Assembly: GCF_032062105.1 (NCBI RefSeq)
Contig: NW_026928438.1
Location: forward strand, 186,001 to 250,000
Direction: 5' to 3'
Origin: Saccostrea cucullata
Taxonomy: Eukaryota
Length of the DNA: 64,000 nt
Shown here: positions 13,761-41,685 of the stretch, piece after piece
Numbering within the stretch: position 1 is the stretch's first letter
How the letters are laid out: each line of letters starts with the position of its first letter
Made by a program: the position numbers and the translations under genes
Notes under the pieces: model-generated
Told to the model about the DNA's origin: nothing
Databases searched by the model: none
The model's input: the letters and a program-made list of their open reading frames with translations, nothing else

Positions 13761-14367
13761 TTGAAAAAAAAAACTAATTTTCAAAGAAAGGCTATCATAA
13801 TTGAAATAATGTTTTAAAATGATGTTTTAGAATGTTGTAGTAAAATTAAGTTGATGTATAATTATGATCATTTCCTATCTGTGTATCTGTCCTCTTCATA
13901 AACAAATGACTTGTGAACATTACATATACTTCTTTTTACAATTTATGAACACCTTATAAATTTCACAATCATGCAGAATTTGACATTTAAGCTAGTCAAT
14001 TTTTTAATCCAGATTTTTCTTTTTCTAGATCCTGTTCTCGTCATACTGGCTATTTTCTGTTTAGATTGTATAATTTAGGAATACAAACACACAGTTCCCT
14101 TTAACTAGCAATAAAAAAACCTGACTTTATATAAAGTGATTAAATCTTTCGAATACATTTATGACTTATCATAATTACATATGTAGGAAGCAATAGCTAG
14201 CATAAATAAACTTTTATTATCTATTTTTCATAATTATTACACTTTATTTCAATCGATTTAGATGCTGAATCATCATGTTTTGTATACTTTCTTTATTATA
14301 GGCAAGGTTATGTATACACCTACTGAAATATCGATAATAAATGTAGGAATAAATAGAATTTTACATG

Positions 14368-14375
14368 TATAAATA
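14368..14375 (+). promoter_or_regulatory. Candidate TATA box of the secreted-peptide gene
   Basis: TATAAATA about 40 bp upstream of the ATG at 14411, which sits in an ACCATG context. Confidence 0.45.
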
Positions 14376-14410
14376 CTGGGATCCTTCAAGTGAAAAACTA
14401 TACAACAACC

Positions 14411-16706
14411 ATGCAGAGCCCAAGGTTTTTCATCGTGCTGTGTGTTGCTTTAATTGCTTCTTTCTTTGAAGTTGGTGTCACTCAAAGAGTTGGTAAGTTA
14501 TATGTTTTTATTGTTTCAAAGAAAACATTTGAATTTAACTTAATCTATGTTTCACATTTGAGTCCATCTTTCTGCGTAAATTCTGGTAAAATTTATTTTA
14601 AGTTTTCAAATCCATAATAGTTTTTTCAATGAAAAGCTGTCGTTTGACCCAAGGACAGATCCACCCTTGGTTATGGAAGCGTACAGAGCTCTACACTTGT
14701 TGTTACATTGTATAACTTTGTATATAATGTATTTTATCGTCTAATCAGTAATCAGTAAACATTTATAAAGTGTTATACCTCCTTATTTATGCACATATTT
14801 TTTTGAATTGTATTCTGATGTGTTTTGTTCATATAATTAAAGGTAATTTGCTTTGTTCTATATTTCTTTTTCTAAACACATTTTCTTATTAATACCCCCA
14901 GTCTATATCAATATTTCAGGAACATAAGCAAAATTTAATATTAATGTTTTTTATTAAAATTAAAATATCTGAAGGGTTCTTGATTATATATTTTTTTTCA
15001 GAAAGGGGCTTTTTGTCATAGATGGTCAAACCTTGTTATGTTGTAGAAGAGAAATGTTATGATTATATAATGCTTATAAAACTGGATACCTTGCAAACTA
15101 GATGTCTCCGTAGAATACTGAAGATATTCTGGCCAAACAAGATCACCAACGAGGAGCTGTATGAAAGAACATGCACAGCTGCTATATCGGACCAGATTAA
15201 AGAAAGACGCTGGAAATGGATTGGCCATGTGATGAGGATGAAACCATCAGAGATACCAAGGGTGGCCCTAAGATGGACTCCACCAGGAAGGAGAAACAGA
15301 GGGCGACCAAAGGAGACATGGCGACGGTCGGTTGAAAAGGAAATGAATGATCAAGGGTGGACTTGGGGCACTGTACAGACAATGGCAGCAGACAGACAGA
15401 GATGGAGGTCCTCGGTGCAGGCCTTATGTGCTCAAAGCACGAAGAGGACTAAGTAAGTAAGTATAAAACATGACGAACTGTCAAGTAGAATATTTTGTTA
15501 TATGAACTTATACTTATTTCACATGATCTGAGAAGAGACCTGTGAAGAGTGCGTCAATAATGCAGGCTACAATGAAGCATGCGTCTGTGTGGTGGACAAA
15601 AACAGTTGTGAAAATGTTCAGGAAATAAAAAAAATTGTGGGAGATAAAGCGAAAGTAGATTGCTTTGGAAATGATCCATAAGGTATGTTCATAATGTATC
15701 TTTTATTTATTCTTTTTATTTTAATCTGTGTGATTTATCTAGCATTTTAAAAAAAAATCACTCAAGAAATCTGATCTTGAAATAATCAAGATATGTTATC
15801 TCCCGAAGAATTAATCAGTAATTAGATAAATTCTCAATAAAATGATTAAAAGGAATATTTGGTAAAGTATTCTGAAGTTATCATGATATGTGAGTATAAC
15901 CAAAAAATCCAGAAAATTGCAAAAGATTAAATGTTTAGAATTATTAATTCATTGTCATTCAATTTAACAATTAAAAATGTCAAAGAGTATTATCTCAATC
16001 AATTTAAAGTTATCAGACAAAATAAATTCTACGTCTTAAGAAAAAGCTGAGATACAGACTTACTTCAAAGTTACGAATTTTCTTATTTCATATTCCGGAG
16101 GGACAAATCACATTCCTTGTCTATACGAATTCATTAACACATACGGAAATATAGGGAATCTAAATAATTCTTCAAATTAAAATACAATAAATATGGTGAA
16201 GCAAGATTACAAGTAAAATAATTGATAATATACATCGAAATAATACTTTAGAAGACATTATTATACAACTAATTTGATTATATCCTTAAAATATAGTTTT
16301 AATTTCGTAAAATATCTAAGTCTATACAACATTTGTCAATCTGACTTTTCTCTGTTAAACTTTTACAAACGGTGGCAAATAATACATAACAAAGCTGGCT
16401 AAATTTTAAATTACACTTAGCTAAAATATATTTTATTTAGATAATGTATAAAACATTACCAATTCACTCTGAGTGTCGTCTAAAATATATAAATATTACG
16501 CAGATTTAAAATGACTGAACACGCGTTATTTGATTTTAGTATTGTATGGCCAGTTTAACATGACCTTTCTTTTTATAGGTTGATACATTCATTACGCTAT
16601 TTCTATTGTGTAACTCATTCAATTCATTTATTTTCTTTATCTTTTAGATTCCAAAATGGATTTTTCTGAAGACTGGACACACGCTGATGTGTGGAAAGAT
16701 AAATAA
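14411..16706 (+). pseudogene. Three-exon secreted cysteine-rich peptide gene, disrupted (exons 14411-14492; 15002-15082 plus 15470-15682; 16648-16706)
   Basis: Signal-peptide exon MQSPRFFIVLCVALIASFFEVGVTQRV followed by GTAAGT; acceptors TTTTTTTTCAG (15001) and CTTTTAG (16647); donor GTATGT (15683); AATAAA at 16702. Frame is continuous once the RTE insert and one TSD are removed. In-frame stops at 15019, 15529 and 15679. Confidence 0.7.
15083..15461 (+). mobile_element. 5'-truncated RTE-clade LINE insertion
   Basis: Encodes the RTE C-terminus (RRWKWIGHVMR...GRRNRGRPKETWRR...ADRQRWR); (TAAG)n tail; TSD TATAAAAC at 15075-15082 and 15462-15469. Confidence 0.9.
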
Positions 16707-16944
16707 AGATCTGAATCTTCATTTATTCATTTGTTTAATTACTGAATGACTTATATAACCATGTAGATTTGGAGAATAAGTAAGATCCTAACCATTAACC
16801 GTTTTTCTGTCGCATATGGAGAGGAAGTAATGTTGACGGGAAATAAAATGGCGGTACTGTGGGGCCATCATAAAACGTGAATGAGAAAGCTTTTCTCTAT
16901 GGTCTTTGAATAGAAAGCTCAAGAACTAATGAAATGAAACATAT

Positions 16945-17270
16945 GAAGATAACAAAAAGCATTCAAGATCAAAATTCCATAAATAATAAAAGATAAAATC
17001 AGAGAAAATACGGACCTCCAAAACATTAGAAGTGGGATCAGGTGCCATGAAGGAATGAGCATCCCCTGCCTACCTGTCACACCCAACATTGTCATTATCT
17101 GCAAAAAAAACGGAAAATCCGTTGTCAGTTCAGTGTATAAATAATGGACTAACAATTAGTATGAGAAATGTCAGTCAGCATTTGGCTCAATGATAAATTG
17201 TATTTGCCGACAAGGTCATTGTTTTAACCATAGAACTTACGAAATGATGACTTTAAACGAGACTGCTCAT
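16945..17270 (-). mobile_element. Penelope-like retroelement 3' fragment
   Basis: Colinear with 23260-23590 (GGATCAGGTGCCATGAAGGA...GTCACACC; CTTACGAAATGATGACTTTAAACGAGACTGCT). Confidence 0.75.
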
Positions 17271-18149: not shown

Positions 18150-20974
18150 CCCGCACCTCAGATCTCCAGATTTCCGCATTATTCCGCATTTTTTCCTCAT
18201 TTTAATATGGAAAAAATGTGGAAAAAAATACGGAGAAAATTAACAATACGGAAAAGCAGAAAATATACGGAAATAATCCGGAAAATAAACGGAAATAATA
18301 TGGAGAATTGGACTTAGTCTATTTTTCATCTGGAAAAATATTGAACTCTTAACTTAGAATATTTTTCATCCGGAAAAAATACGGAGCTCTGGACTTAGAA
18401 TTTTTTCATCAAGAACAAGATGTGTTTGTGAGACACAGTATTACCTGGCGGCAACATTAAGTTCTAAAAAGCAATTTTTAGCAAATGGGTCTCAGTCAAG
18501 GTCACACAATCATTGTTCTTGGTGTCATTTGAAAGCACTTTATTAGTGTAGTATGCATACCAAATATTAAGTCTCTATCATCTATGGTTCAAAAGTTATG
18601 GCGAAAATTCGAAAAAAGCTATATTTAGCACATAGGTCACAATCAAGGTCACAAGGTCATTGATCTTGGTGTCAGTTGAATGTGCCTAATTAGTGGAGTA
18701 TGCATACCAAATATGAAGTCTCTATCTCTCACGGTTTTAAAGTTATGGCGAAAGTTCGAAAAAGCTATTTTTAGCATAAAGGTCCCAGTCAAGGTCACTG
18801 ACCTTGGTGTCAGTTGAAAGTGCCTAATTAGTGGAGTATGCATACAAAATATGAAGTCTCTATCTCTCACCGTTCAGAAGTTATGGCGAAAGTTCCAAAA
18901 AGCTATTTTTAGCATAAAGGTTACAGTCATGGTCACAAGGTCATTGACCTTGGTGTCAGTTGAAAGTGCCTAATTAGTGGAGTATGCATATACCAAATAT
19001 GAAGTCTCTATCTCTCATGGTTCAGAAGTTATGGCGAAAGTTCAAAAAAGCTATTTTTAGCATAAAGGTCACAATCAAGGTCATAAGGTCATTGACCTTG
19101 GTGTCAGTTGAAAGTGTTTTTGTAGTGGAGTATCCATACCAAATATGAAGTCTCTAAGTCTCACAGTTCAAAAGTTATGGCGAAGGTTGACAACAGACAA
19201 ACAAACAGACAGACATACAGCTATATAAACAGACAGACAGGACAAAAACAATATGCGCCCCGAAAAAATTTGGGTGCATAAAAACTGTCTTGGAGTTAAC
19301 AGCAGTTTCTCTGTTTCTCCTGAATGTTATGTACAATTTGATCGGGATCGGAAGAATGTTTCAAAAAGTCGGGCTCAGTGATCAATTAATTTAAACAACA
19401 GACCGCCAAAATTTAACCTTGGCCTCCATGTTGCAACGTCTGCTCTGTCTAAAGGAAGAAGTTTGTTGACCAGACAGCCTGAGATCGTATTGCTGTATCA
19501 ACCAAAAGATGCAGATACACGTATTTCATATGCGGTAGGTCAGTCATATTTTTTTAACATGTGTCTCACTGTGATGATGAAAATAAATACTCTAGGCCTA
19601 GGACTGAGCTACCAGGCTACGTACGTTTCAGCCAATATGCCCATGATTCAAATCTTTCAATCAGCTCATAGAATTTTATTATGGTTAACCACAATTAAAG
19701 GTGTTAATTTTGGGGAGCCATGGGGTGTAATCTCTAGCAATGATTTACCATACATTTTTTTTTTGGTAGCGTCTGTGCATGAGGAGGAGATTTCTGAATA
19801 TTCAACTTACTGCGATTTTAACGGGCTTAAAGCTTGGTCCATGGATGGTTATGTTTGAGGTATATATATTCTTTTTTTTCTTTTTTTATTGCTTGTTTAA
19901 TTAAAAACAGTCAACTATGATTGTCATTATTATAAATAATATTTTAAACAAATTGATATTAAATTGAAGAACCCAAACTTGTGTTTATAAAAAGATTTGA
20001 AAAGGAATAAAAGCAATGAATTTAAATTTTATTAATATTGCACCATTATAATTTAAGTACTTTTTTTTAATTGATAGGATTTGCCAATTCGACCGCAAGT
20101 GCTGCTGCAAGAAATTAAACATGCAGAGACCTTACAAATTACAAAGAAGTCTGAAGAAAATTTTTATTGGACAGATGGGTGTAAAGCACAGACCTGAGAT
20201 ATAAATTGAATTGTGAGAAATATGAATCAGGGATGCAGGTAGAAAATGGCAAATGTGATCCAGATTGATAAAAAATGTCTAAAATTTTTTCTTGTTTTGT
20301 AAATATTCAATGCTATGTCAATTGTTATTTTTTCCCCAATACCTAATAGTGTTGAACATTTCACTCCCACTTTTGCTTAAATAGAATGAATAAATTTCCA
20401 TTTATTTAATATGAATATTAAAAAATGCCACATTTTTTCCATGATGAACTTGTGGCTTAAATAAGAGTTCCAGTTTTTTTTCCATACATGCTCCTATTTG
20501 TTTGTCAAAGATATAAGATCCAATACATTGCTCATGAACATAATGTGTAATTTTGTTCATTCATTTATATGTTTTTTTCTCATAATGATATAATAAATTG
20601 TATATAATTTTGCACATTGTTGATGGTTTTGTAAATATTTATGTATGTATGCATCATGTAGCGGTTTTATTAGCCATTTTATTACCATGTGATTAACTCC
20701 GTATTTTCTCCAGATTTCCGTATTTCCGCATTTTATCAACCAAGTAAATACCTCCATATTTTGTATATATGGAAATGCGGAAATCTGGAGAGAATACGGA
20801 AAAAGAGTCCAAATACTCCCATCCACATTTTCTCCATATTTTGAATACGGAGAAAATCTGGAAATTTGAATCTACGAAAATCTGGAATGAATGCGGAAAA
20901 TTAGTCCAAATACTCTCGTCCGCATTTTTTCCTTATTTTGAATAAGGAAAAAATGTGGAGATCTGAGGTGCGGG
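18150..20974. mobile_element. EnSpm/CACTA-like non-autonomous element
   Basis: Perfect 19-bp TIRs CCCGCACCTCAGATCTCCA / TGGAGATCTGAGGTGCGGG, 2-bp TSD AT, subterminal CGGAAAA/TTTCCG repeats at both ends. Confidence 0.75.
18414..19284 (+). mobile_element. CvA/pearl-type Helentron-like element with ~5 tandem ~145-bp core repeats
   Basis: AACAAGATGTGTTTGTG head; AAGTTATGGCGAA recurs at roughly 18592, 18739, 18878, 19026 and 19171; (ACAG)n; terminal stem-loop plus GCATAAAAA. Confidence 0.85.
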
Positions 20975-23258: not shown

Positions 23259-23947
23259 TGGAGATAACGAACAGTATTCAATATCAAAGTTCATGAAACA
23301 ATACGAAATAGGAGAAGAGCAAACACGGACCTACGAAACATCAGAGGTTGGATCAGGTGCCATGAAGGAGTTAGTATCCCCTGCTGACCGGTCACACCCG
23401 CCGTGTGCTCTTTGTCATGGTCGGGAAATAACGGAGATATCCGTCGTCAACTCAGTGTATAAACAATGGACTAACAATTAGTATGAAAAACGTCAGTCAG
23501 CATTCGACTCAATGATGAATTGTATTTGCTGTCAAGGTCATTGTATCGACCTTAGAACTTACGAAATGATGACTTTAAACGAGACTGCTGATATTCTTGT
23601 TTCATCAACTTGCTTGTCAAGGGTGAAACAACATGGCGTTCGAAGGGAGCGGACGTGTCTATTGAGACGCTCTTTTTCCAACCGGTATCTGGCTGATTAA
23701 CTTGTTGGCTGTGTTACTATGTGTTACTATATGATGTCCCTATGTTGATATATCCTATTTGAAGATTCTATTCTGATATTTGGGTGCATTTTTTGCAGTG
23801 TTTTGTCAAAAAAGAGTGTTTCTATATATAGCGATACAGGTAAACGGGCAATAGTGCTATAGTGAGACGTGTTCACCTGTTCACTCCGTGTTAAACGTGC
23901 GTGAAGGAATTATTAAAAACACTCGCTTATTCCAAAATTATTCCAAA

Positions 23948-24868
23948 ATGCCGGGGTCGGGTACAAAGAAAGCTTCTAAAGAAAAAGAAAAAGGGGATTC
24001 CGACGTGGAGTTCAGTTTTGAAGAGGTAAGCAAGTCACTTGATAAAATCCAAAGCGACATAAATGAAGTGAAACATGACCTGAAGAAAACGGTCAAGGAT
24101 GAGAAACTTGAAGCTCTTGTGACAAATATTATTAAAAATCTCCTCAAAGAAAATAATAAAGAACAAGAAACCATTATTAAAACTGAGGTTGACAAACGCT
24201 GTAAACTCATAGAAGAGAACTATAACAAGAAGATAGAAAGAATGAATCAGAATATTGAGGCACTTGAGGGGAAAGTGGAGAATTTAACTGAAAAACTCCA
24301 TGAATGCAAAAAAGAATTGCGCGAATCCAAACAACTCCAAGAAGAAACGCAACAAATATCAGTGGAGGCTCTTCGGCGAAGCAACTATAACGAGCAGTAT
24401 TCTCGCAAGCACAATTTCAAAATTATGGGCCTTCCTGAGGATAAAAAGGAAAACACATGGGAACTAGCCAAAAATTTCATTGAAGAGAACGCAGAAGTCG
24501 AATTACATGATCACGAAATTGTAGCAATACATAGGATTCCTGGGGAAGCGGGAAAACACCGACCAATACTGGTAAAGGTCCTAAACACAGACGTGAAGGC
24601 AAGGGTGATGAGGAAAAGATCAACGATCAAAGGAATGGGCAATGGGCTTAAATTAGTTGATGATGTGACACGTGCAAACGCCGAGTTAATCAACCAGCTA
24701 TTGCAATTCCAGGAAATTGAAAGTGCATGGTATTTCAATGGTGCAGTGTATGGAAAACATAAAAACAACAAAAACAAAAGAATAAAATTTGACATCACAG
24801 ACGACATAAAAGCAAAATTGAGAAAATTCAAAGATCATTCCGAGAAAAACATTCCTGAAGACGAGTGA
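23948..24868 (+). CDS. LINE ORF1p (coiled coil plus L1-type RRM/CTD)
   Basis: Heptad-rich coiled coil followed by NEQYSRKHNFKIMGLPE, IHRIPG and RPILVK motifs typical of L1 ORF1; first ATG at 23948. Confidence 0.9.
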   Translation: MPGSGTKKASKEKEKGDSDVEFSFEEVSKSLDKIQSDINEVKHDLKKTVKDEKLEALVTNIIKNLLKENNKEQETIIKTEVDKRCKLIEENYNKKIERMNQNIEALEGKVENLTEKLHECKKELRESKQLQEETQQISVEALRRSNYNEQYSRKHNFKIMGLPEDKKENTWELAKNFIEENAEVELHDHEIVAIHRIPGEAGKHRPILVKVLNTDVKARVMRKRSTIKGMGNGLKLVDDVTRANAELINQLLQFQEIESAWYFNGAVYGKHKNNKNKRIKFDITDDIKAKLRKFKDHSEKNIPEDE

Positions 24869-25026: not shown

Positions 25027-25199
25027 GTATCAATGCCAGTCAAGTTCCGGTTTGTGAGAAACAAGAACGCATTGGACAGTGCAGTGGCACGCCTACCTCT
25101 GTCTCTCTTTAACATTTGTTTTTTTTTCTTTTGCAAATTGTATGGGTCTGAGGGTGAGTGGTGTGTATGCGGGTGAATGGAAAATCTATAAGATACAAA

Positions 25200-28100
25200 A
25201 TGGTTGATACAATAAAAATTGCAACTGTGAATTGTCAAGGGTTAGCGACGCCGTCTAAGCGACAAGATGTTCTAAATTTCTATAAAACAAAAAAATATTC
25301 TATATTATGTATTCAAGACACACATTTTATTTCTGAAATAGAACCATATGTGGAAGCACAGTGGAGATACAAATGTATTTTTAATTCTTTCAGATCAAAT
25401 TCAAGGGGAGTATGTATATTGTTTAATAATGATTTTGAATTTAAGATTCACAAAGAAAAGACAGACAATGATGGTAATTTTTTAGCTTTAGACCTTACAA
25501 TTGAAGAAAACAAAGTCACTTTGATAAATATCTATGGGCCAAATTGTGATAGCCCGGAATTTTACGAAAATGTAAGAGACGCTTTTTTAGAGTTTGATAA
25601 CGATTATTATATTTTATGTGGCGACTTTAATCTTGCTCTAAATCCATCAATTGATACACAAAATTATAGGAACATAAATAATCCACATGCTCGAGAAAAA
25701 CTTTTAGAAATCATGGATCATTTACAGATAATAGATTATTACAGAATTTTAAATCCTGACAAAAAGATATACACTTGGAGAAGAAAAAACCCTGTTAAGC
25801 AGGGTCGCCTTGATTATATTTTAATTTCTGAAAATTTATCTAATTTGGTTGAGAATTTTTCTATCAAACCTGGATATAGGTCAGACCATTCTGTTGTTGT
25901 TTTAGAACTGAAATTCAATTCTTTTGAAAGAGGGAAAGGACTTTGGAAATTTAACAACAGTTTGTTAATAGATAAAAATTTTATTGCAAAGGTTAAAGAA
26001 ACTATTAAAGAAGTCCGCAGAAAATATCTGCAGGATACAGATAATCATGTTCATCAGTACACTGAAAATATTGATGATATCTTGTTTCTTGAGGTTCTTT
26101 TAATGGAAATTAGGGGGGTTACAATTTCATATTCTTCTTACAAAAAAAGAGAAAGAGAAAAATTAGAAAAAGGCTTGATTGAAGAAATAGAAAGTCTAGA
26201 AAATAATAATGATATCAACATGGAATTATTAGAACAGAAAAAATTAGATCTCGAAAATATAAGAAAGGAAAAACTACAAGGACACATTATAAGATCTAAA
26301 GCAAGATGGGTCGAGGAAGGAGAAAAACCTACAAAATACTTTTGCAATCTTGAATCACGAAATTTCTTAAATAAAATTATTAAAAGGGTTGAATTGAATG
26401 AAAACAATATTATATATGATCAATCAGAAATTTTGAACCAAGTCAAAAAGTTTTATCAAGATTTATATTCTAATACAGATTATGAACTGATTGACATTGA
26501 TTTAGAAGAAATTATAAACTCAACTAAAATTCCAAAATTAGATAAAATCACCTCTATTGATTTAGAAAAGGATATTGAAGAAAATGAAGTTTTACAAGTT
26601 TTAAAAAATATGAAGAATGATAAATCTCCTGGAAGTGATGGTTTCACAACTGAATTTTTTAAATTTTTCTGGAGTGATCTTAAAATCTATATTATGCGAG
26701 CGATAAATTGTATTTTGTCAAAAAAAGAACTTCCTATATCACAAAGACTAGGGATAATTTCATGTATACCCAAAGGGGATAAACCAAGACAGTTTTTGAA
26801 AAATTGGAGACCAATAACTCTACTAAATGTACTTTATAAACTAATATCAGGATGCCTAAGTTACAGAATAAAATCTACTCTAGATCTCTTGATTTCCGAC
26901 ACACAAACTGGATTCCTAAAAGGAAGATATATTGGTGAAAACACCAGATTTATTTATGATTTAATGGCATACACGGAAGCTAAAAATATACCAGGATTGT
27001 TGGTTTTAATCGATTTTGAAAAGGCTTTTGATTCAATTTCATGGTCTTTTATTTATAAAGTATTGAAATATTTTGGTTTTGGTAATAATATAATTAATTG
27101 GATAAAAATCCTTAATACAAATTTTAAAGCATCAGTTTTGCAATGCGGATTCTTATCAGAACAATTTGATATCCAAAGGGGTTGTAGACAAGGAGATCCC
27201 GTTGCTCCATACTTATTTCTTCTTTGTGCTGAAATTCTAGCTATTCTAATTAAACAAAATACTGATATAAAAGGCATTGTTGTCAATGACAAAGAACATA
27301 AGATTTCTCAATATGCTGATGACATGTCGCTAGCTCTTGATGGCTCACCAAGATCCCTATTTGCTGCTCTTGAAACCATTGACTTTTACTCTAGATTATC
27401 TGGTTTAAAAATAAACAGTTCTAAGACAAAAATTGTATGGATAGGCTCTAAAAAATTTTCTAATGAGGTGTTTCATCATTCTAGATGGAAACTAGATTGG
27501 GGATGCACAACCTTTGATCTACTAGGAATAAATTTTTCTGTTGAACTCGATAAAATAAATGAAATTAACTACGATAGTATAATACCCAAATTTAAAGCAT
27601 TAATACAACATTGGAAACGGAGAATACTAACTCCAATTGGTCGTGTTACAGTTGTTAAAACTATACTTATACCAAAATTAAATCACCTATTTATATCATT
27701 GCCAACACCAAAACCTGTAGTAATTTATTCTCTCTGTCGAGACATTTTTGAGTTCATTTGGAAATCAAAGTGTGACAAAATTAATAGAGCTACTATAACG
27801 CAGGATTATTTATTAGGGGGACTTAAAATGATTAATATAAGCAAATTTATAATGGCCTTGAAATGTTCTTGGATTAAAAGATTGTCAAACTATTGTTGTA
27901 ACAAACCATGGATAGATTTATTCATGGCTGTAAATGGTAATGACATTTTAAACAAGCTACTTGATTTTGGGGTCGATTTTGTTCGTAAAATCTTAATTAC
28001 AAAAAACAATAAATTCTGGCAAGATGTTTTTATTTCATGGCTTGAAGTTATAAAAACTCTGAATGATTCAGTTTCTCAAGACAATTTCTTAAATATACCA

Positions 28101-28835
28101 GTATGGTATAACTCAAAAATCAAAGTTAATAACAAAAGCATTTTTATTCAAGATTGGTATAAGAATGGTGTTAAAACTATCCGTGATTTTTTAGATGAAA
28201 GGGGTATTTTTCTTACTCAAAAGACTTTTCAACAAAAATTTAACATTTCTACAGTATGTATAATGCAGTATAACAGTGTTGTTTGTTCAATCTCAAAGTA
28301 CATAAAGGATATGTCAATAGATAGATTCTCAGTGAAAAATATGTATGGACCTTTTTTACCTGTTTATTTTCAAGACATACTGTTGTATGAAAAATGTACA
28401 AAATATATTTACAATTGTCTTAATACAAAGGAAACTGTTTTAAAAGCTTTATCCAAGTGGAATGTAGAATTATCTCCATATGGAATCAATGAAATTTGTG
28501 TAAAAGATGTTTTTAAAGTATGTTTTAAAACAACAAAGGACTCAACAATTCAATGGTTACAATTTAGAATTTTACATAGGATTCTACCTGTTAACTCTTA
28601 TTTAAAAAAAATTAAGATAAAGAATTCAGATATTTGTACTTTTTGTAAACAAGAAGTAGAAACTATTCAACATGTTTTCATTGGTTGTGAAAAAGTTTTA
28701 TCTCTGTGGACCAGCCTCAGTTTACATATTTACCAAACAATGAAAAAAAGAGTTGGTTTTAATGTTGAAAATGTTATTCTAGGTGAAATACCAATGACAT
28801 ATAACAACAGAGTCAAGAATTTTATAATATTATAA
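25200..28835 (+). CDS. LINE ORF2p: APE endonuclease, reverse transcriptase and C-terminal CCHC zinc finger
   Basis: TVNCQG, GDFN, RLDY and SDH (APE); KSPGSDG, NWRPITLLN, IDFEKAFDS, GCRQGDP and QYADD (RT); CTFC...HVFIGC. The frame continues past the TAA at 28833 to a TGA at 29004-29006. Confidence 0.95.
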   Translation: MVDTIKIATVNCQGLATPSKRQDVLNFYKTKKYSILCIQDTHFISEIEPYVEAQWRYKCIFNSFRSNSRGVCILFNNDFEFKIHKEKTDNDGNFLALDLTIEENKVTLINIYGPNCDSPEFYENVRDAFLEFDNDYYILCGDFNLALNPSIDTQNYRNINNPHAREKLLEIMDHLQIIDYYRILNPDKKIYTWRRKNPVKQGRLDYILISENLSNLVENFSIKPGYRSDHSVVVLELKFNSFERGKGLWKFNNSLLIDKNFIAKVKETIKEVRRKYLQDTDNHVHQYTENIDDILFLEVLLMEIRGVTISYSSYKKREREKLEKGLIEEIESLENNNDINMELLEQKKLDLENIRKEKLQGHIIRSKARWVEEGEKPTKYFCNLESRNFLNKIIKRVELNENNIIYDQSEILNQVKKFYQDLYSNTDYELIDIDLEEIINSTKIPKLDKITSIDLEKDIEENEVLQVLKNMKNDKSPGSDGFTTEFFKFFWSDLKIYIMRAINCILSKKELPISQRLGIISCIPKGDKPRQFLKNWRPITLLNVLYKLISGCLSYRIKSTLDLLISDTQTGFLKGRYIGENTRFIYDLMAYTEAKNIPGLLVLIDFEKAFDSISWSFIYKVLKYFGFGNNIINWIKILNTNFKASVLQCGFLSEQFDIQRGCRQGDPVAPYLFLLCAEILAILIKQNTDIKGIVVNDKEHKISQYADDMSLALDGSPRSLFAALETIDFYSRLSGLKINSSKTKIVWIGSKKFSNEVFHHSRWKLDWGCTTFDLLGINFSVELDKINEINYDSIIPKFKALIQHWKRRILTPIGRVTVVKTILIPKLNHLFISLPTPKPVVIYSLCRDIFEFIWKSKCDKINRATITQDYLLGGLKMINISKFIMALKCSWIKRLSNYCCNKPWIDLFMAVNGNDILNKLLDFGVDFVRKILITKNNKFWQDVFISWLEVIKTLNDSVSQDNFLNIPVWYNSKIKVNNKSIFIQDWYKNGVKTIRDFLDERGIFLTQKTFQQKFNISTVCIMQYNSVVCSISKYIKDMSIDRFSVKNMYGPFLPVYFQDILLYEKCTKYIYNCLNTKETVLKALSKWNVELSPYGINEICVKDVFKVCFKTTKDSTIQWLQFRILHRILPVNSYLKKIKIKNSDICTFCKQEVETIQHVFIGCEKVLSLWTSLSLHIYQTMKKRVGFNVENVILGEIPMTYNNRVKNFIIL

Positions 28836-29544
28836 TCAAAACAATACATTTTCACATGTTTAATGCAAGATAAAATTCCAAATCTTTTGGGCTTATTAAA
28901 TCACATTAAATTGAAACATAATATTGAAAAATGTGTAGCTATCAAAAATTTCCACATAGATAAATTTGAAAAAGAATGGTCTTTGTGGAAAAACATATTT
29001 CAATGAGCTTATTATAAAAATATTATATACTGTTTGTTTTTCATAAAGAGATTTGTCAATATAAATCTATACAGAGTAGTAAATATATGTTCTAAGTAAA
29101 GTTGTAATAAGATATATGAATCATTATTTTTTCCAAACCATTTTGTTATTATTTTCATGATCTAAAGAATGAGACTGTATGTAAGTCAGTAAGAGTGTGT
29201 GAATGAAAGCAGTCAAAATGTAAAAAAGCTCATAAATTGTTTATAATTTCATACAAATTGTGATGTTGGGCAATATAAATAAAAAAAAAAAAAAAAAAAA
29301 AAACTTGCTTGTCAATAATTTACCTCGTTTTAGAAATTGTTCTCACGTAGAGCATGCTCTTGCGTATCGAATCAACTTAGATATATATACTCCGTATGCA
29401 GGTGATGAAGGTATTTTGCTGCATAAGTAAGGGAAGTTGACGATAGAAAAGTTAAAGTCATCACGTTTATCATATAGCTTGGTCCTTAGATTACCATTAT
29501 CGTCTTCTTTTTCAAGTACAATATCCAAATTTGAAACGGATGTG

Positions 29545-29620
29545 TCTCTTTAAGTTGAAAGATATCTCTATTTTTTAGAGATATTTCTCTAAAATGAGAG
29601 ATATCTCTGTAACTTCAAGA
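29545..29620. repeat. GAGATATCTC motif array (right part; mirrored at ~39875-39947)
   Basis: Joining 23258 to 29545 restores the unit AAGATATCTC. Confidence 0.7.
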
Positions 29621-30484
29621 TAGATTTTATTTTTCAAATAAATAGCAAAAAGGTTTGCCATACTAAACACAAGAGCACATTTAAAATTTCTGACAGTATA
29701 TGCAACACGATGCAAAAGATTAGAGTTGACTCAATAAAACTAAAATATATTATTAGACATATATACACGTACGTGCAGAATAATTTAGCTCTGAGAGTAC
29801 AACAAATGCCAATACGGAATGTGTTTACCTTCCTATGCAGAGACATAGATTCTTTATATTTTACTAACATTAATAATGATAACTTAGTATATTGCTTTTC
29901 ACCATCTATAGTGCAATGACGCAAATCATGCAACTCTGCGCATTATAACTATACATATATATATATACATGTACACTAAGCCTACTGTAGGAAAAAAAAA
30001 CGCCGCAATGTAATGACCTAATTCAATGCAGATATATTGTTACGCCGATAAACATTTTCCGTGATTGTGAAATCAATCTCATCATTTTATTTGACGTATT
30101 AGTAAAGAATATGCCGACTTCATTGGATTTCAAGGTAATGATGCACTTATAAAATTAAAGAAACCATTCTTGATTTGTTTGCAGCAAAACTCTTTTCATG
30201 GCATTGTATCATTTGATGCATGGAGCTTTTTGAAACCCTTAACAATGTACACAAGATGCAAGTGCACTTTTGTTTTAGCGAATGTTTTCTGTGCAACATG
30301 CGTGGAGATTGGTCCCTCGAAAGAGAAAGTTCACATGTGTGAAGTGACAGTTAGTCAAAGAGAGTTATTTATCTACTCTCCACTTTAGAAACACAGCAAT
30401 AAGACATTAAGTAATGGGAAGGGAAATTTCGGCTTTCTAACCTTTTAGATCAAGTATAGTTAAACCTCTCCCAAATATTATATG

Positions 30485-30668
30485 TATATTACATGGCTTT
30501 GAGGGCAGCATACCAGAATATTTGCCCCAAGGTGACAGGAAAGCCCTGGAGTGTTATGTCGCCCGATTCCGAAGGCAGAGTACGTGCGACATAACACTCC
30601 TGGGCTTTTCTGTCACCGAGGGGCAAATATTCTGGTATTGCTGCCCGAGAATAACGCCATGTAATATA
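30485..30668. repeat. ~180-bp imperfect hairpin element (mirrored at ~38824-39007)
   Basis: TACATGGC...ATACCAGAATATTTGCCCC...GTGTTATGTCGC / GCGACATAACAC...GGGGCAAATATTCTGGTAT...GCCATGTA around a CCGAAGG-containing loop. Confidence 0.75.
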
Positions 30669-31450
30669 TGATATAACATTTTTAATCATTGAACCCATAC
30701 CGATCATCGAACATATTTATTGAACACTATGTACACATGTATGTGATTCGATACACAAGGGACACAATTTTAAATAACGCAAGCTACTAAACATGTAAAA
30801 TACACATATACCCTACGAATGATAAAATATATATAACAGGCAAACAATTTAAATAAAACACAATAATTAACTTGCTCGGTAGTAGAATAGGTTATACCTG
30901 CATTTATTAATGAACTATTTATAGCTGAACTCTGGGATCAAGAGAGTTGATGACAAAATACTAATGAATCATCAGCAATACATTTCTGCAAATTTGTAAT
31001 TGTGTGTTTTATAATAAAATGATATCATACCCCGGTAGTTCCTCCGGTGATACTGGTACGACTGACAGCTGTACTGGCTGTATCTAATCGACATCCAGTG
31101 GTATCCATTTTAATGATGCAGCCAGGACAAAGATGCAATACCTTTTCCGCCAATTGATCTGCAAAATAAAAACAAATTATGTAAAATTATTCCTTCATGG
31201 AATGGGTTAGGACAGGAAACATTCTAAACTACATTAGTCGGTTTCTGTATGAAGTCTAAATCACATTACATGATCAAGGGAGATAAGTAGTATGAAAGAA
31301 ACGTGTTATATTTGACACTTAGTAAAAATTTATTTAATTTATATTAAATATCTTATTAGCACAGAAGCAAAACCCCGAATTTCACTTTTAAAAAATTAAT
31401 ACACAAGTGCATGTACAATGTGGTATTCTATCGTCAACTTCTCTTGCTTC

Positions 31451-31690
31451 CGAGGGGTGATCAAGAACTTTGCGCAAGCTATCTCTATACACAAAAGCAC
31501 AATTCAAATCGGAATGAAATTTGGTACACATAGAGTCAAACACATGTTCTATAAATAACATATGTAGTGAAATGTGTTCATGTTTGTGAGGTCACAGTGT
31601 GAAAATGACATCAATATAAAGATCACATGTGACAAAAAATGGTTAATTTAGTCGTATTAGAGCCATAAACGGCTGGAAAAATACAAATAT
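31451..31690. mobile_element. Tc1/mariner-like MITE fragment (related copies at ~37805-38041, ~43365-43595, ~52975-53205)
   Basis: CGAGGGGTGATCAAGAACTTT terminus; shared block TATTTATAGAACATGTGTTTGACTCT. Confidence 0.55.
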
Positions 31691-32099
31691 GTTTTTAAAA
31701 TTCCTTTACAGCAATATATTATAATTTGTACACGGTTTATAAAGTCAAAAGACTTACCAGAAGTGTAGTTATTTATTGGGTTTAGTAAGGGAAGGGAGAT
31801 GATTAAAATTAATGTTTGTTCTGTTGCCCAGTGGAAGCAAGCTGGCAAAGAGATGTGTACTTTGTTAAGCAATTTGATATGAAATATCGGCAATGTACAG
31901 TAAGAAACATAGTTGAATATCATATAAAAACAATACGATTACTGAGTAATAGATCACCGAAATATCGTTTACTTTAGATTTTAACATATTAGATACTAGT
32001 GTGGGGTCAAAGGCTGGTAAAGGTCTCGAAGAGTTCAACCGATGTCACAAAGTTGCACTACCAAAACCTCGAATTAATGCCTACTGTCTCAAAAAGGTT

Positions 32100-33990
32100 C
32101 TGCCAGCTAGTCGCATGTCGTACATTTTCATGGTGACCCTGGGAATGCTTTCAGTAGCTGAGTGACAGTGGCAAAAGGCCAGTCTCCAGCGCCTTTAAAT
32201 AACTGGAACCTGTGACTAGGGAAAGGCCAATCTCCAGCGCCTTTAAATAACTGGAACCTGTGACTAGGGGAAGGAAAACTCCATCAGAAAACAACCGGTC
32301 CTCCGGGTCCAGGGGGTTTTGCCTAGGGTTTACAGCCCTATCATGTAAAAACTCTCTACGCTACAGAAACCAGAGCAACAGAAGAAGAAATCCAACGCTC
32401 GATTCAGGTGGATGCCTCACCTAGAAGCCGTAAAACGCAGACTGGTGAAAGCCGTATGAAAACCAGTCAGCCTAAGGTTCTCCTGATGATGAAAGCAGCA
32501 TCAAGAATTGGAACCTGGAATGTGCGAACCATGTTTGAAACTGGGAAAGCAGCCCAGGTAGCCAGAGAGATGAGGAGATACAACATCCAACTACTTGGAA
32601 TACGTGAGAGCAGATGGAATGAAACTGGCATGTCTTCATTGACTAGCGGAGAAAAGATCATATACTCTTGACATTCAGATTAAAATCATGATCACACTGA
32701 AGGAATTACCATCACGATGTCACCAGCTACTGCCAATGCACTGACTGAATGGAAACCAATCTCATCAAGGATTATGACAGCAAGATTCCACTCCAAATGA
32801 AGAGAAGAAACTGTAATCTCACGTACAAACTCTGAAGATGAGGAAACAATATTGCAGGCAGCAGTGGACAAGACGAGATATGAAAATCTTGATGGGTGAC
32901 ATGAATGCCAAGATAAATACCAGTAAAAGACAGGGAAGGCAAGGCTCTAACAAAGGAAGAAGATCAGAGAAAGCGCTTGGCAGAACATTTCAGAGAACTC
33001 TCAAATCACCCAGCACCAGAAACAACACAAAACATACCACAAGGAGATTCTGAACTAACAGTGATCACCACTCCTCCCACAAGGGATGAAACCATCAAGG
33101 CTCTGAAGAAACTAAAGAGTGGGAAAGCAGCTGGGCCTGATGGAATTCCTCCAGAAGCCATTTAAGCAGACATAAAGACTTCAGAAGATATGTTACTACC
33201 TCTCCTGGAGAAGATATGGTCCGAGGGGAACGTACCAGCTGATTGGAAAAAAGGACATCTAGTGAAGCTACCCAAGAAAGAAGACCCTGGAAAATGCAAG
33301 AACTGGCGTTGCATCATGCTCCGATCCATCCCAAGCATTATCCTGACACAGAACAGGCAGGCTTTAGAAAGGAAAAGTCCTGTACAGACCAGGTCGTCAC
33401 TCTAGGTATAATAATCGAACAGTCACTGGAGTTGTGCAGTCAACACTGTATCTGAACTTCATAGACTTTGAAAAGGCCTTTGATAGTGTTGATAGAAAAG
33501 TCATCTGGAAATTACTACAGCATTATGGAACGCCCTCTACTTTCATCAACCTCATACAACAATTGTATGACGAGATTATATGCCAAGTCATCCACAATGG
33601 AAACCTTTTGAGGTGCAGACAAGGGTTAGACAAGGCTGTCTACTGTCATCAATGATTTTTTCTAGTGGTAGTAGACTGGATCATACGGAGGACAAATAAA
33701 GATAGTAAGACCAGTGGACTGTCACTCATTGTTTGGAAGACGTCGACTTTGCAGACGATCTATGCCTCATGTCCCTGAAGTATGAGCATATACAGCTCAA
33801 GACAAATAGGCTTGCAAAAGAAGTAGCAAAGACAGGTCTAAAGGTGAATATCGAAAAGACAGAGGTAATGCGGCTCCACAACAAACAGCAAACACCAGTT
33901 ACGCTTGGAGAGCACAACTTTTAAGATGCAGACTCGTTTAAATACTTAAGCAGCATCGTCACAGCCACTGGTAGAACAGATGAATCGAAG
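32100..33990 (+). pseudogene. Degenerate, internally deleted RTE-clade LINE
   Basis: RIGTWNVRT (APE), KSGKAAGPDGIPPE, FIDFEKAFDSV, DFADDL and GLKVNIEKTEVM in broken frames. Confidence 0.9.
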
Positions 33991-34516
33991 ACAAATTAAG
34001 AAAGAAGACACTTTAAGAGGGACAGACAGAGCCATAGGGAGTTTCTACTACGGTATAAAATTTAACTGAAAAAGCCCGGCAGGTTCTTGAAATATCGTGC
34101 GGAAACGAGAGTTTTAAAACAAACATTATTTATCATTTTTCTTCTTAATAATGACCTTTGAACTCCGTATCAATAGGGGTCTATATTAGGCAACAGGGAG
34201 TTGTCTTGTAATTTTTTTTTGAAAAAGCAGGGATATCAATATGTATTTGAAGCTTAAGAAAGTATAGATCACAGACAGAAGGGCTGAAGGACGGATAGAC
34301 AGACAGACAGACTAAAATTAACACCTTTACTTTCAGCAAAAGGTATTCATGCAATATGAATCCAAAATTTGTATATACAATATATAGGTACATGTCACCA
34401 TTGCTTTGTCTTCTTTGAAAGACGAACAGGTAGTATATTAAGCTTAATATAATAAGATTGTTAACATCACCATTACTTTATTTAAACCGTGTCTCTATAT
34501 CCTCTATACATGTATA

Positions 34517-34974
34517 CGAGGGTTGTCTCAAAATATGCGAATAATTTCAATATTTTTTTTGTTTTACTAACATCATAAAATTAAATATTGGTATGCTTTA
34601 AAACAACAGTTTTTGATAATTCTCAGAAACAGTAAAATATCTCTATAAATGACATTTTTCCCATCGTTAGATAAATCATTCAACATAGCTGCCGCAGCAA
34701 CACTGATGACGTCAAAACGTAACTCTTGGAAATTTTTGATCCTTAACGCATTCAAAAATTTCCAAGAGTTACGTTTTGACGTCATCAGTGTTGCTGCGGC
34801 AGCTATGTTGAATGATTTATCTAACGATGGGAAAAATGTCATTTATAGAGATATTTTACTGTTTCTGAGAATTATCAAAAACTGTTGTTTTAAAGCATAC
34901 CAATATTTAATTTTATGATGTTAGTAAAACAAAAAAAATATTGAAATTATTCGCATATTTTGAGACAACCCTCG
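34517..34974. mobile_element. Tc1/mariner-like MITE forming the centre of palindrome 1
   Basis: TA|CGAGGGTTGTCTCAAAA ... TTTTGAGACAACCCTCG|TA; terminus resembles 54770 and 56334. Confidence 0.65.
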
Positions 34975-35499
34975 TATACATGTATAGAGGATATAGAGAC
35001 ACGGTTTAAATAAAGTAATGGTGATGTTAACAATCTTATTATATTAAGCTTAATATACTACCTGTTCGTCTTTCAAAGAAGACAAAGCAATGGTGACATG
35101 TACCTATATATTGTATATACAAATTTTGGATTCATATTGCATGAATACCTTTTGCTGAAAGTAAAGGTGTTAATTTTAGTCTGTCTGTCTGTCTATACGT
35201 CCTTCAGCCCTTCTGTCTGTGATCCTATACTTTCTTAAGCTTCAAATACATATTGATATCCCTGCTTTTTCAAAAAAAAATTACAAGACAACTCCCTGTT
35301 GCCTAATATAGACCCCTATTGATACGGAGTTCAAAGGTCATTATTAAGAAGAAAAATGATAAATAATGTTTGTTTTAAAACTCTCGTTTCCGCACGATAT
35401 TTCAAGAACCTGCCGGGCTTTTTCAGTTAAATTTTATACCGTAGTAGAAACTCCCTATGGCTCTGTCTGTCCCTCTTAAAGTGTCTTCTTTCTTAATTT

Positions 35500-37390
35500 G
35501 TCTTCGATTCATCTGTTCTACCAGTGGCTGTGACGATGCTGCTTAAGTATTTAAACGAGTCTGCATCTTAAAAGTTGTGCTCTCCAAGCGTAACTGGTGT
35601 TTGCTGTTTGTTGTGGAGCCGCATTACCTCTGTCTTTTCGATATTCACCTTTAGACCTGTCTTTGCTACTTCTTTTGCAAGCCTATTTGTCTTGAGCTGT
35701 ATATGCTCATACTTCAGGGACATGAGGCATAGATCGTCTGCAAAGTCGACGTCTTCCAAACAATGAGTGACAGTCCACTGGTCTTACTATCTTTATTTGT
35801 CCTCCGTATGATCCAGTCTACTACCACTAGAAAAAATCATTGATGACAGTAGACAGCCTTGTCTAACCCTTGTCTGCACCTCAAAAGGTTTCCATTGTGG
35901 ATGACTTGGCATATAATCTCGTCATACAATTGTTGTATGAGGTTGATGAAAGTAGAGGGCGTTCCATAATGCTGTAGTAATTTCCAGATGACTTTTCTAT
36001 CAACACTATCAAAGGCCTTTTCAAAGTCTATGAAGTTCAGATACAGTGTTGACTGCACAACTCCAGTGACTGTTCGATTATTATACATAGAGTGACGACC
36101 TGGTCTGTACAGGACTTTTCCTTTCTAAAGCCTGCCTGTTCTGTGTCAGGATAATGCTTGGGATGGATCGGAGCATGATGCAACGCCAGTTCTTGCATTT
36201 TCCAGGGTCTTCTTTCTTGGGTAGCTTCACTAGATGTCCTTTTCTCCAATCAGCTGGTACGTTCCCCTCGGACCATATCTTCTCCAGGAGAGGTAGTAAC
36301 ATATCTTCTGAAGTCTTTATGTCTGCTTAAATGGCTTCTGGAGGAATTCCATCAGGCCCAGCTGCTTTCCCACTCTTTAGTTTCTTCAGAGCCTTGATGG
36401 TTTCATCCCTTGTGGGAGGAGTGGTGATCACTGTTAGTTCAGAATCTCCTTGTGGTATGTTTTGTGTTGTTTCTGGTGCTGGGTGATTTGAGAGTTCTCT
36501 GAAATGTTCTGCCAAGCGCTTTCTCTGATCTTCTTCCTTTGTTAGAGCCTTGCCTTCCCTGTCTTTTACTGGTATTTATCTTGGCATTCATGTCACCCAT
36601 CAAGATTTTCATATCTCGTCTTGTCCACTGCTGCCTGCAATATTGTTTCCTCATCTTCAGAGTTTGTACGTGAGATTACAGTTTCTTCTCTTCATTTGGA
36701 GTGGAATCTTGCTGTCATAATCCTTGATGAGATTGGTTTCCATTCAGTCAGTGCATTGGCAGTAGCTGGTGACATCGTGATGGTAATTCCTTCAGTGTGA
36801 TCATGATTTTAATCTGAATGTCAAGAGTATATGATCTTTTCTCCGCTAGTCAATGAAGACATGCCAGCTCCATTTCATCTGCTCTCACATATTTCAAAGA
36901 GTTGGATGTTGTATCTCCTCATCTCTCTGGCTACCTGGGCTGCCTTTCCAGTTTAAAACATGGTTCGCACATTCCAGGTTCCAATTCTTGATGCTGCTTT
37001 CATCATCAGGAGAACCTTAGGCTGACTGGTTTTCATACGGCTTTCACCAGTCTGCGTTTTACGGCTTCTAGGTGAGGCATCCACCTGAATCGAGCGTTGG
37101 ATTTCTTCTTCTGTTGCTCTGGTTTCTGTAGCGTAGAGAGTTTTTACATGATAGGGCTGTAAACCCTAGGCAAAACCCCCTGGACCCGGAGGACCGGTTG
37201 TTTTCTGATGGAGTTTTCCTTCCCCTAGTCACAGGTTCCAGTTATTTAAAGGCGCTGGAGATTGGCCTTTCCCTAGTCACAGGTTCCAGTTATTTAAAGG
37301 CGCTGGAGACTGGCCTTTTGCCACTGTCACTCAGCTACTGAAAGCATTCCCAGGGTCACCATGAAAATGTACGACATGCGACTAGCTGGC
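35500..37390 (-). pseudogene. Mirror copy of the degenerate RTE LINE
   Basis: Same broken ORFs on the minus strand (35568-36654). Confidence 0.9.
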
Positions 37391-40188: not shown

Positions 40189-41685
40189 TTTTTTTTTTTA
40201 TTTTTTTTTTTTCTTTATATTGCCCGACATCACAATTTGTATGAAATTATAAACAATTTATGAGCTTTTTTACATTTTGACTGCTTTCATTCACACACTC
40301 TTACTGACTTACATACAGTCTCATTCTTTAGATCATGAAAATAATAACAAAATGGTTTGGGAAAAATCAAGAATTCATATATATTATTACAGCTTTACTT
40401 AGAACATATATTTACTACTCTGTATAGATTTATATTGACAAATCTCTTTATGAAAAACAAACAGTATATAATATTTTTATAATAAGCTCATTGAAATATG
40501 TTTTTCCATAAAGACCATTCTTTTTCAAATTTATCTATGTGGAAATTTTTGATAGCTATACATTTTTCAATATTATGTTTCAATTTAATGTGATTTAATA
40601 AGCCCAAAAGATTTGGAATTTTATCTTGCATTAAACTTGTGAAAATGTATTGTTTTGATTATAATATTATAAAATTCTTGACTCTGTTGTTATATGTCAT
40701 TGGTATTTCACCTAGAATAACATTTTCAACATTAAAACCAACTCTTTTTTTCATTGTTTTGTAAATATGTAAACTGAGGTTGGTCCATAGAGATAAAACT
40801 TTTTCACAACCAATGAAAACATGTTGAATAGTTTCTACTTCTTGTTTACAAAAAGTACAAATATCTGAATTCTTTATCTTAATTTTTTTTAAATAAGAGT
40901 TAACAGGTAGAATCCTATGTAAAATTCTAAATTGTAACCATTGAATTGTTGAGTCCTTTGTTGTTTTAAAACATACTTTAAAAACATCTTTTACACAAAT
41001 TTCATTGATTCCATATGGAGATAATTCTACATTCCACTTGGATAAAGCTTTTAAAACAGTTTCCTTTGTATTAAGACAATTGTAAATATATTTTGTACAT
41101 TTTTCATACAACAGTATGTCTTGAAAATAAACAGGTAAAAAAGGTCCATACATATTTTTCACTGAGAATCTATCTATTGACATATCCTTTATGTACTTTG
41201 AGATTGAACAAACAACACTGTTATACTGCATTATACATACTGTAGAAATGTTAAATTTTTGTTGAAATGTCTTTTGAGTAAGAAAAATACCCCTTTCATC
41301 TAAAAAATCACGGATAGTTTTAACACCATTCTTATACCAATCTTGAATAAAAATGCTTTTGTTATTAACTTTGATTTTTGAGTTATACCATACTGGTATA
41401 TTTAAGAAATTGTCTTGAGAAACTGAATCATTCAGAGTTTTTATAACTTCAAGCCATGAAATAAAAACATCTTGCCAGAATTTATTGTTTTTTGTAATTA
41501 AGATTTTACGAACAAAATCGTCCCCAAAATCAAGTAGCTTGTTTAAAATGTCATTACCATTTACAGCCATGAATAAATCTATCCATGGTTTGTTACAACA
41601 ATAGTTTGACAATCTTTTAATCCAAGAACATTTCAAGGCCATTATAAATTTGCTTATATTAATCATTTTAAGTCCCCCTAATAAA
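40189..41685 (-). mobile_element. Inverted copy of the LINE 3' end (ORF2 C-terminus, 3' UTR, poly-A)
   Basis: ORF 40659-41666 is almost identical to the last 335 aa of ORF2, with the same premature stop and the same 3' flank. Confidence 0.95.

What the first reader, a model, noticed from the sequence alone, without database searches (positions are those of the whole stretch)
14411..16706. Hidden secreted cysteine-rich peptide gene, reconstructable by removing an RTE insertion
Seen: splicing three exons and excising 15083-15469 gives one frameshift-free frame: MQSPRFFIVLCVALIASFFEVGVTQRV-ERGFLS*MVKPCYVVEEKCYDYIMLIKHDELSSRIFCYMNLYLFHMI*EETCEECVNNAGYNEACVCVVDKNSCENVQEIKKIVGDKAKVDCFGNDP*-DSKMDFSEDWTHADVWKDK-stop. 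It has a TATA box, canonical splice sites with matching phase-1 introns, and AATAAA. The ORF track misses it. The layout (signal-peptide exon, Cys-rich exon, acidic tail exon) resembles bivalve defence-peptide precursors, but I do not recognise the Cys spacing. Inference: a dead copy of a possibly undescribed secreted peptide family with intact relatives elsewhere.
Basis: partly seen in the sequence, partly recalled or inferred. Interest (0 to 1): 0.7.

Follow-up and report, generated by a model that had tools for sequence, protein, structure and literature searches.

The report
Fast-evolving six-cysteine oyster peptide pair
What looked like a dead gene is probably a working one: with a neighbouring copy 22 kb away, it has an open reading frame for a small, likely secreted peptide whose six cysteines stay fixed while the rest changes fast, matching no family found in the searches and likely acting in defence or recognition.

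Summary
The gene model does not hold. A paralogue 22.5 kb upstream, just outside the window, shares promoter, signal-peptide exon, six cysteines (identical codons) and a stop at the same place. So the RTE and two stops are likely intronic, TAA 15679 is the likely natural stop, and exon 3 is likely 3' UTR. Both copies then read as open 75/76- and 78-residue precursors with the core C-x2-C-x8/9-C-x-C-x6-C-x16/17-C. That core is more diverged (60% DNA identity) than the non-coding flanks (77%), as in conotoxin- and MgCRP-I-type genes. No homologue or fold was found; exon 1 relatives occur in DNA runs of two other organisms. Weak points: the needed acceptor (GAG/AAG) is non-optimal, no RNA confirms splicing, and dN/dS is below 1. 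Verdict: an unnamed two-gene family of likely secreted, acidic, three-disulfide peptides, probably intact; function inferred.

The parts
14006..14410 (+). Promoter/5' region conserved with the upstream paralogue; TATA box TATAAAT at 14368-14374
   Evidence: blastn 71% over 494 columns including exon 1; 76-77% by global alignment; a 25-nt promoter pattern with up to 2 mismatches occurs at exactly these 2 places in the genome, 0 for the reversed control
14411..14492 (+). Exon 1 coding part: 27 codons + 1 nt; predicted signal peptide (residues 1-24, basic N-region, hydrophobic core), Gln25 as likely mature N-terminus
   Evidence: Hydropathy peak 3.34 over an 11-residue window; 52% identical to paralogue exon 1, Gln25 shared; cleavage judged by the (-3,-1) rule from knowledge, SignalP not available; about 85% identical contig in DNA run X7
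14493..15532 (+).
   Evidence: 15002-15532 without the RTE is 73% identical to the paralogue, like the flanks (Fisher p 0.42); 5 of 6 gaps frameshift; the paralogue has 5 stops in that frame
14985..15001 (+).
15075..15469 (+). Young 5'-truncated RTE retrotransposon (15083-15461) with 8-bp target-site duplication (15075-15082, 15462-15469), 63 nt upstream of the likely acceptor
   Evidence: 40 matches among 40 scored of 183 candidates in the genome, best others 99%
15489..15535 (+). Likely 3' splice site: AG-free zone 15489-15530, then tandem acceptors at 15531-32 (GAG) and 15534-35 (AAG), both phase 1 and in frame
   Evidence: The paralogue has an AG-free zone of similar length and an AAG acceptor at the aligned position; non-optimal -3 bases; not confirmed by RNA
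15533..15682 (+). Exon 2: six-cysteine core C-x2-C-x9-C-x-C-x6-C-x17-C; stop TAA 15679-15681, then 1 nt and the donor
   Evidence: Cys codons at 15541, 15550, 15580, 15586, 15607, 15661, all 6 of 6 identical in the paralogue; paralogue stop TGA at the same place before the same donor
15683..16647 (+). Intron 2, after the stop codon
   Evidence: GT..AG; donor and acceptor conserved in the paralogue, whose intron is 2.56 kb
16648..16930 (+). Exon 3, likely 3' UTR, with AATAAA at 16702 and 16842 (paralogue has AATAAA at comparable offsets)
   Evidence: 79% identical to the paralogue, with 7 of 7 gaps frameshifting; the paralogue's 'tail' frame stops after 11 codons

Best explanation
The locus is a probably intact three-exon gene, one of a tandem pair, that would encode a 75/76-residue precursor: a predicted signal peptide followed by an acidic 51/52-residue peptide with six cysteines, which likely forms three disulfides and likely works outside the cell by binding a fast-changing protein target in defence or recognition. 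Shown: open frames in both copies, identical cysteine codons, a shared stop position, an RTE lying in sequence that behaves as intron, and a core more diverged than the flanks. Inferred: use of the 15532/15535 acceptor, secretion, N-terminal pyroglutamate from Gln25, disulfide pairing, and a binding (inhibitor- or ligand-type) action rather than cationic membrane lysis, since the mature peptides are acidic (pI 4.4 and 5.3).
For: Paralogue with matching promoter, exons, donors and stop. Open 75/76- and 78-aa frames. 6 of 6 Cys codons identical, while the other 39 aligned codons are 40% identical. Core 84/139 identical versus 595/775 in the flanks, Fisher p 9e-5. Flanks carry 0.026 frameshifting gaps per nt, so 3.6 are expected in 141 nt and none is needed (P about 0.03). 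Signal peptide dN 0.22, dS 0.37. Exon 1 relatives in 2 of 7 runs laid, both DNA; 7 of 11 listed differences in X7 match the paralogue's base. Conserved signal region, hypervariable mature region and Cys codon preservation are described for MgCRP-I (PMC4558851, passages).
Against: The acceptor is non-optimal (GAG, then AAG; 62% pyrimidine, against 81% in the paralogue and 69% with CAG at the upstream site 15001), and a young RTE sits 63 nt upstream. No RNA confirms the junction. Core dN 0.83 is below dS 1.14, so positive selection is not formally shown (two sequences, near saturation, alignment anchored on Cys). Only two copies were found, not a large hypervariable family. Folds are low-confidence and disagree in the C-terminal half (pLDDT 70 and 54, pTM 0.39 and 0.30). 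Nothing bears directly on function.
Confidence: 0.55

Rival explanations
1. Same six-cysteine family and gene model, but the window copy is recently silenced: its acceptor has decayed, or the RTE and the stronger upstream acceptor at 15001 divert splicing into a stop-containing transcript; only the upstream paralogue works.
For: GAG/AAG acceptor with a modest pyrimidine tract; stronger CAG site at 15001 leading to TAG 15019; RTE 99% identical to other copies, so recent; outside runs resemble the paralogue more than this copy.
Against: The frame, all six Cys codons, both donors, the AG-free zone and the AG position are kept in this copy; the insertion leaves the last 63 nt of the intron in place.
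Confidence: 0.27
2. One reading: a dead 144-codon precursor with a long cysteine-rich exon 2 and a coding acidic tail, broken by three stops and the RTE.
For: The joined segments are frameshift-free and 15001 is a good acceptor; the first ten 'tail' codons are 7 of 10 identical in translation between copies, so the tail could be a relic of an older propeptide.
Against: All damage falls in the 5' half, none in the core, in both copies; the paralogue lacks the 15001 acceptor and has 5 stops and frameshifts there; both copies stop at the same codon; the 3 changes in those ten tail codons are all non-synonymous; 5'-half statistics are at chance.
Confidence: 0.06
3. Function rival, given an intact gene: a water-borne or gamete signal (pheromone- or ligand-like) rather than a defence factor.
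For: Small, acidic, partly helical, six-Cys, likely pyroglutamate-blocked, low copy number; fast divergence also fits reproductive proteins (from knowledge).
Against: No sequence match to any family; resemblance to Aplysia attractin/enticin is recalled only and was not tested on sequences.
Confidence: 0.2
4. Function rival, given an intact gene: a secreted metal-binding or shell/mucus matrix peptide using CxxC and CxC thiols or acidic residues.
For: CxxC and CxC motifs; 11 acidic residues in each mature peptide.
Against: An even number of fixed cysteines behind a signal peptide usually means disulfides (knowledge); non-Cys residues, including acidic ones, are not conserved between the copies.
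Confidence: 0.12

Closest known systems
MgCRP-I cysteine-rich peptides of Mytilus (PMC4558851, passages)
   Same: Conserved signal region, hypervariable six-Cys mature region in one exon, Cys codon preservation, a phase-1 intron after the signal exon, tandem duplication, function unknown.
   Different: Cys array is C-C-C-C-C-C with CxxC and CxC, not C-C-CC-C-C; no dibasic propeptide site; acidic, not cationic; the last intron follows the stop; two copies, not dozens.
MEROPS family I84 protease inhibitors (cvSI/scSI; PMC9198434, passages)
   Same: Bivalve, secreted, acidic (pI about 5-6), three exons with two phase-1 introns, six Cys in exon 2, tandem duplicates, Cys codon preservation.
   Different: I84 has 12 Cys, six more in a coding exon 3, and arrays such as C-x7-C-x4-C-T-C; here exon 3 has no Cys, follows the stop, and the spacing differs.
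Oyster CS-alpha-beta defensins and big defensins (PMC3390580, passages)
   Same: Signal peptide followed directly by a small disulfide peptide; some Cg-Def genes have a last intron at the very end of the coding region; N-terminal pyroglutamate is known in Cg-BigDef1.
   Different: Defensins are cationic with eight Cys in the oyster CS-alpha-beta array; spacing and charge differ; no Pfam match.
Myticusin-1, myticin, mytimycin, mytimacin (PMC5484132 table; PMC8004829 passages)
   Different: 8-12 Cys with other spacings (myticusin-1 ends in three adjacent Cys, mytimycin has an EF-hand extension); none fits six Cys as here.

Membership tests
MgCRP-I | C-C-CC-C-C cysteine array | tested here: not met
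   Spacings 2,9,1,6,17 and 2,8,1,6,16; no adjacent Cys
MgCRP-I | About 15-residue pro-region ending in KR/RR | tested here: not met
   No dibasic site between signal peptide and first Cys in either copy
MgCRP-I | Conserved signal region, hypervariable mature region, preserved Cys codons | tested here: met
MgCRP-I | Positive selection in the mature region (site models) | tested here: inconclusive
   Two sequences only; dN 0.83, dS 1.14, flank distance 0.28
Family I84 protease inhibitors | 12 conserved Cys, six each in exons 2 and 3 | tested here: not met
   Six Cys, none in exon 3, stop before intron 2
Family I84 protease inhibitors | Three exons, two phase-1 introns, acidic mature peptide | tested here: met
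   intron 2 here lies after the stop
Family I84 protease inhibitors | Inhibition of subtilisin-type proteases | not testable with these tools
   needs an assay
CS-alpha-beta defensins / myticins / mytilins | Cys array with CxxxC on the helix and CxC near the C-terminus; cationic | tested here: not met
   CxxC first, CxC in the middle; pI 4.4 and 5.3; compared by eye with the table; no Pfam hit
Myticusin | 104 residues, 10 Cys | tested here: not met
   52-54 residues, 6 Cys; compared by eye with the sequence shown
PSI domain / PTTG1IP-like | CxxC followed by CxWC (motif recalled); Pfam PSI match | tested here: inconclusive
   No PSI family in the Pfam scans at E<=10; CxC without Trp here; fold searches gave no clear match
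Aplysia attractin/enticin pheromones | Six-Cys helical fold and conserved heptapeptide (recalled) | not tested
   Only a search listing was seen; no sequences compared
RTE-clade LINE (the insertion) | 3' end of an RT ORF, short tandem-repeat tail, target-site duplication, 5' truncation | tested here: met
   the clade label rests on recalled RTE features, as Pfam gave no hit on this fragment

The most novel reading that the evidence does not exclude
A previously undescribed oyster family of secreted three-disulfide mini-proteins with a new cysteine framework (C-x2-C-x8/9-C-x-C-x6-C-x16/17-C) and possibly a new alpha-beta-alpha-beta fold, evolving conotoxin-style (frozen Cys codons, accelerated change even at silent sites) at only two gene copies, and acting as a species-specific binder in immunity or spawning.
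Probability: 0.4. Interest if true: 0.6.

Novelty: new variant of a known kind. Interest (0 to 1): 0.42.

Why it matters
Known oyster defence peptides are few (defensins, big defensins, Prp, BPI, I84 inhibitors). An unannotated, intact pair with a new disulfide framework and conotoxin-like evolution would add a testable effector or signal family and a small stable scaffold. It also shows how a chance in-frame intron plus a young retrotransposon can make an intact small gene look like a pseudogene. The general type (bivalve secreted hypervariable Cys-rich peptide of unknown function) is already known, which caps the interest.

Tried and rejected
Pfam: nothing near a cut-off for 7 pieces. PDB sequences: 1 hit at E 8.9. 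Foldseek: 0 at E<=0.001. VIA-align: best Z 3.3, tied between a YefM chain (rmsd 2.6, 41 aligned) and the potato-I-type inhibitor CMTI-V (rmsd 2.9, 43 aligned); not significant. The second model (pLDDT 54) was not searched. The ESM Atlas gave no answer for either core. Further paralogues: L005 (E 3.6) not pursued beyond reading it; C10973 62.7 kb (E 5.4) has no DNA-level support (below shuffles) and no promoter or exon-1 match in 100 kb; C10973 74.4 kb is part of an interspersed repeat (150 matches of 151 candidates); L081/L082 match only 70 nt of the distal 3' region. Reads: 12 runs listed, all small shares, 7 laid; in the 4 laid on the whole locus none covered the exon 2 core, and none of the RNA or possibly-RNA runs (X12, X6, X8, X10) covered exon 1; this shows nothing about expression. 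Myticin family search in the genome found nothing, uninformative by its own control. An alternative donor at 15655 that would join exon 3 was rejected: it drops the sixth Cys and is not in the paralogue. Literature: no paper holds any of six short motifs of the two peptides; searches showed no such family by listing. Supplements were not read and subscription papers are not searched, so a description there is not excluded. Earlier findings: none by sequence or nearby.

Full report
1. Observation. The insertion is flanked by an 8-bp duplication. It is a young 5'-truncated RTE: the five closest other copies are 98.4-99.2% identical over 379 nt, and all five continue 5' into the element's ORF, with a 5-nt microhomology at the junction. 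The genome is 1.17 Gb in 23,869 contigs; earlier AI notes on it call it an oyster (not checked here).

2. A paralogue changes the model. DNA and core-protein searches found only the locus itself, but the signal-peptide exon found a second copy on the same contig and strand, 22,533 nt upstream and about 8 kb before the window starts. It has the same promoter (76-77% identity), a 97-nt exon 1 with the same phase-1 donor, a cysteine exon at L014:5062-5202 and a matching exon-3 region at 79%. A promoter pattern with up to two mismatches occurs at exactly these 2 places; searches from the paralogue found no third copy.

3. What is coding. Between 15533 and 15682 both copies are open, differ by 9 nt, keep 6 of 6 cysteines with identical codons, and stop at the same position one base before the same donor (TAA versus TGA). 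An open frame with at least six Cys arose in 1 of 20,000 shuffles for each copy. By contrast, 15002-15532 without the RTE is 73% identical to the paralogue, the same as the flanks (p 0.42), 5 of 6 gaps shift the frame, the paralogue has 5 stops there and lacks the 15001 acceptor, and its stop and Cys counts are at chance (0.19, 0.20). Exon 3 and downstream has 7 of 7 frameshifting gaps, and the paralogue's tail frame closes after 11 codons. In the paralogue the only phase-1 AG within the open frame before the first Cys is an AAG after a pyrimidine tract; the window has an AG at the aligned position (GAG at 15532) with an in-frame AAG three bases on, and both are preceded by 42-44 nt without AG. 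I infer that exon 2 starts there, so that the RTE and two stops are intronic, the third stop is natural and exon 3 is 3' UTR. The precursors are then 75/76 and 78 residues. Against this: the acceptor is non-optimal, a stronger site lies at 15001, and no RNA was available to check.

4. Product and evolution. Residues 1-24 have the layout of a signal peptide (hydropathy peak 3.34; cleavage by the recalled (-3,-1) rule), leaving Gln25 in both copies. The mature peptides would be 52 and 54 residues, 5.7 and 6.5 kDa, pI 4.4 and 5.3, with spacing C-x2-C-x8/9-C-x-C-x6-C-x16/17-C and 26% identity. The core is less conserved than non-coding DNA: 84/139 against 595/775 (p 9e-5), and 40% in the 39 non-Cys codons. 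dN is 0.83 and dS 1.14, against 0.28 in the flanks and 0.22/0.37 in the signal peptide. So change is accelerated at all sites between frozen Cys codons; positive selection is suggested, not shown. AlphaFold2 on two sequences gives helix-strand-helix-helix-strand at pLDDT 70 for the window copy, and a weaker model (54) that agrees on the first helix, the middle strand and a late strand.

5. Relatives elsewhere. Of 12 runs listed (all small shares), 7 were laid. Two DNA runs of other organisms cover the promoter and exon 1: X7 with a 135-nt contig, 19 differences in 124 nt, and X5 at depth 4. 7 of 11 listed X7 differences and 4 of 4 listed X5 differences match the paralogue's base, so they are probably closer to the upstream copy. 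No protein, Pfam, PDB or fold match was found; these searches need shared words or good models, so they do not prove absence.

6. Mechanism. Best reading (0.55): an intact gene for a secreted three-disulfide mini-protein that binds a fast-changing target in defence or recognition; acidity argues against cationic membrane lysis. The pheromone-like (0.2) and metal/matrix (0.12) readings are alternative functions of an intact gene.

7. Known families. It evolves like MgCRP-I (PMC4558851, passages) and shares exon layout and acidity with I84 inhibitors (PMC9198434, passages), but fails the cysteine array of both, and of defensins, myticins, mytimycins, mytimacins and myticusin (PMC5484132 passages and table; PMC8004829 passages; PMC3390580 passages). 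Passages of PMC8398477 on oyster regulatory peptides showed no match; its figures and supplements were not seen. PMC10608444, PMC12466427, PMC11767717, PMC6401078 and PMC9656538 were read as passages on myticusin only. Six short motifs were found in no paper.

8. Verdict. Real gene, wrong first model; probably intact; an unnamed two-copy family with a cysteine framework not matched in any search here. New variant of a known kind; interest 0.42.

Noticed in passing
G000:C10575:177878-184030 (L014:1878-8030), about 2-8 kb before window base 1: The intact-looking paralogue itself: 78-residue precursor with a short acidic stretch after the signal peptide and a more basic core (pI 8.6 for the core alone); the better candidate for experiments.
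   Followed up: yes
window 27805-41688 and 41685-54888: Two abutting giant palindromes (arms about 6.9 and 6.5 kb, 99% complementary, loops 12 and 156 nt). Possibly fold-back assembly artefacts, possibly real inverted duplications.
   Followed up: partly
window 23855-24868 and 25158-28835: Long ORF pair (337 aa and 1225 aa) that reads as an L1/Tx1-type retrotransposon with endonuclease and reverse transcriptase (label from recall); its 3' end is repeated in the first palindrome.
   Followed up: no
G000:C10575 about 79700-80209, minus strand (L045/L046): A 178-codon open frame with an apparent signal peptide and eight regularly spaced Cys (C-x3-C-x6-C-x4-C-x6-C-x3-C-x6-C-x3-C); another unnamed secreted Cys-rich candidate on the same contig.
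   Followed up: no
window 16649-16680 and L014:7761-7792: The first ten codons of exon 3 are 90% identical between copies and read as an acidic, Trp-containing motif in both; may be a UTR element or the relic of a propeptide cut off by a stop older than the duplication.
   Followed up: partly
G000:C10973:74395-74560 (L051, L057): An interspersed repeat with at least 150 copies whose translation mimics the CxC-x6-C part of the core; treated as chance, but exon capture by a mobile element was not excluded.
   Followed up: partly
window 14670-14857, 16933-17270, 18411-19196: High-copy repeats in intron 1 and downstream of the gene, and a 147-bp tandem array.
   Followed up: no
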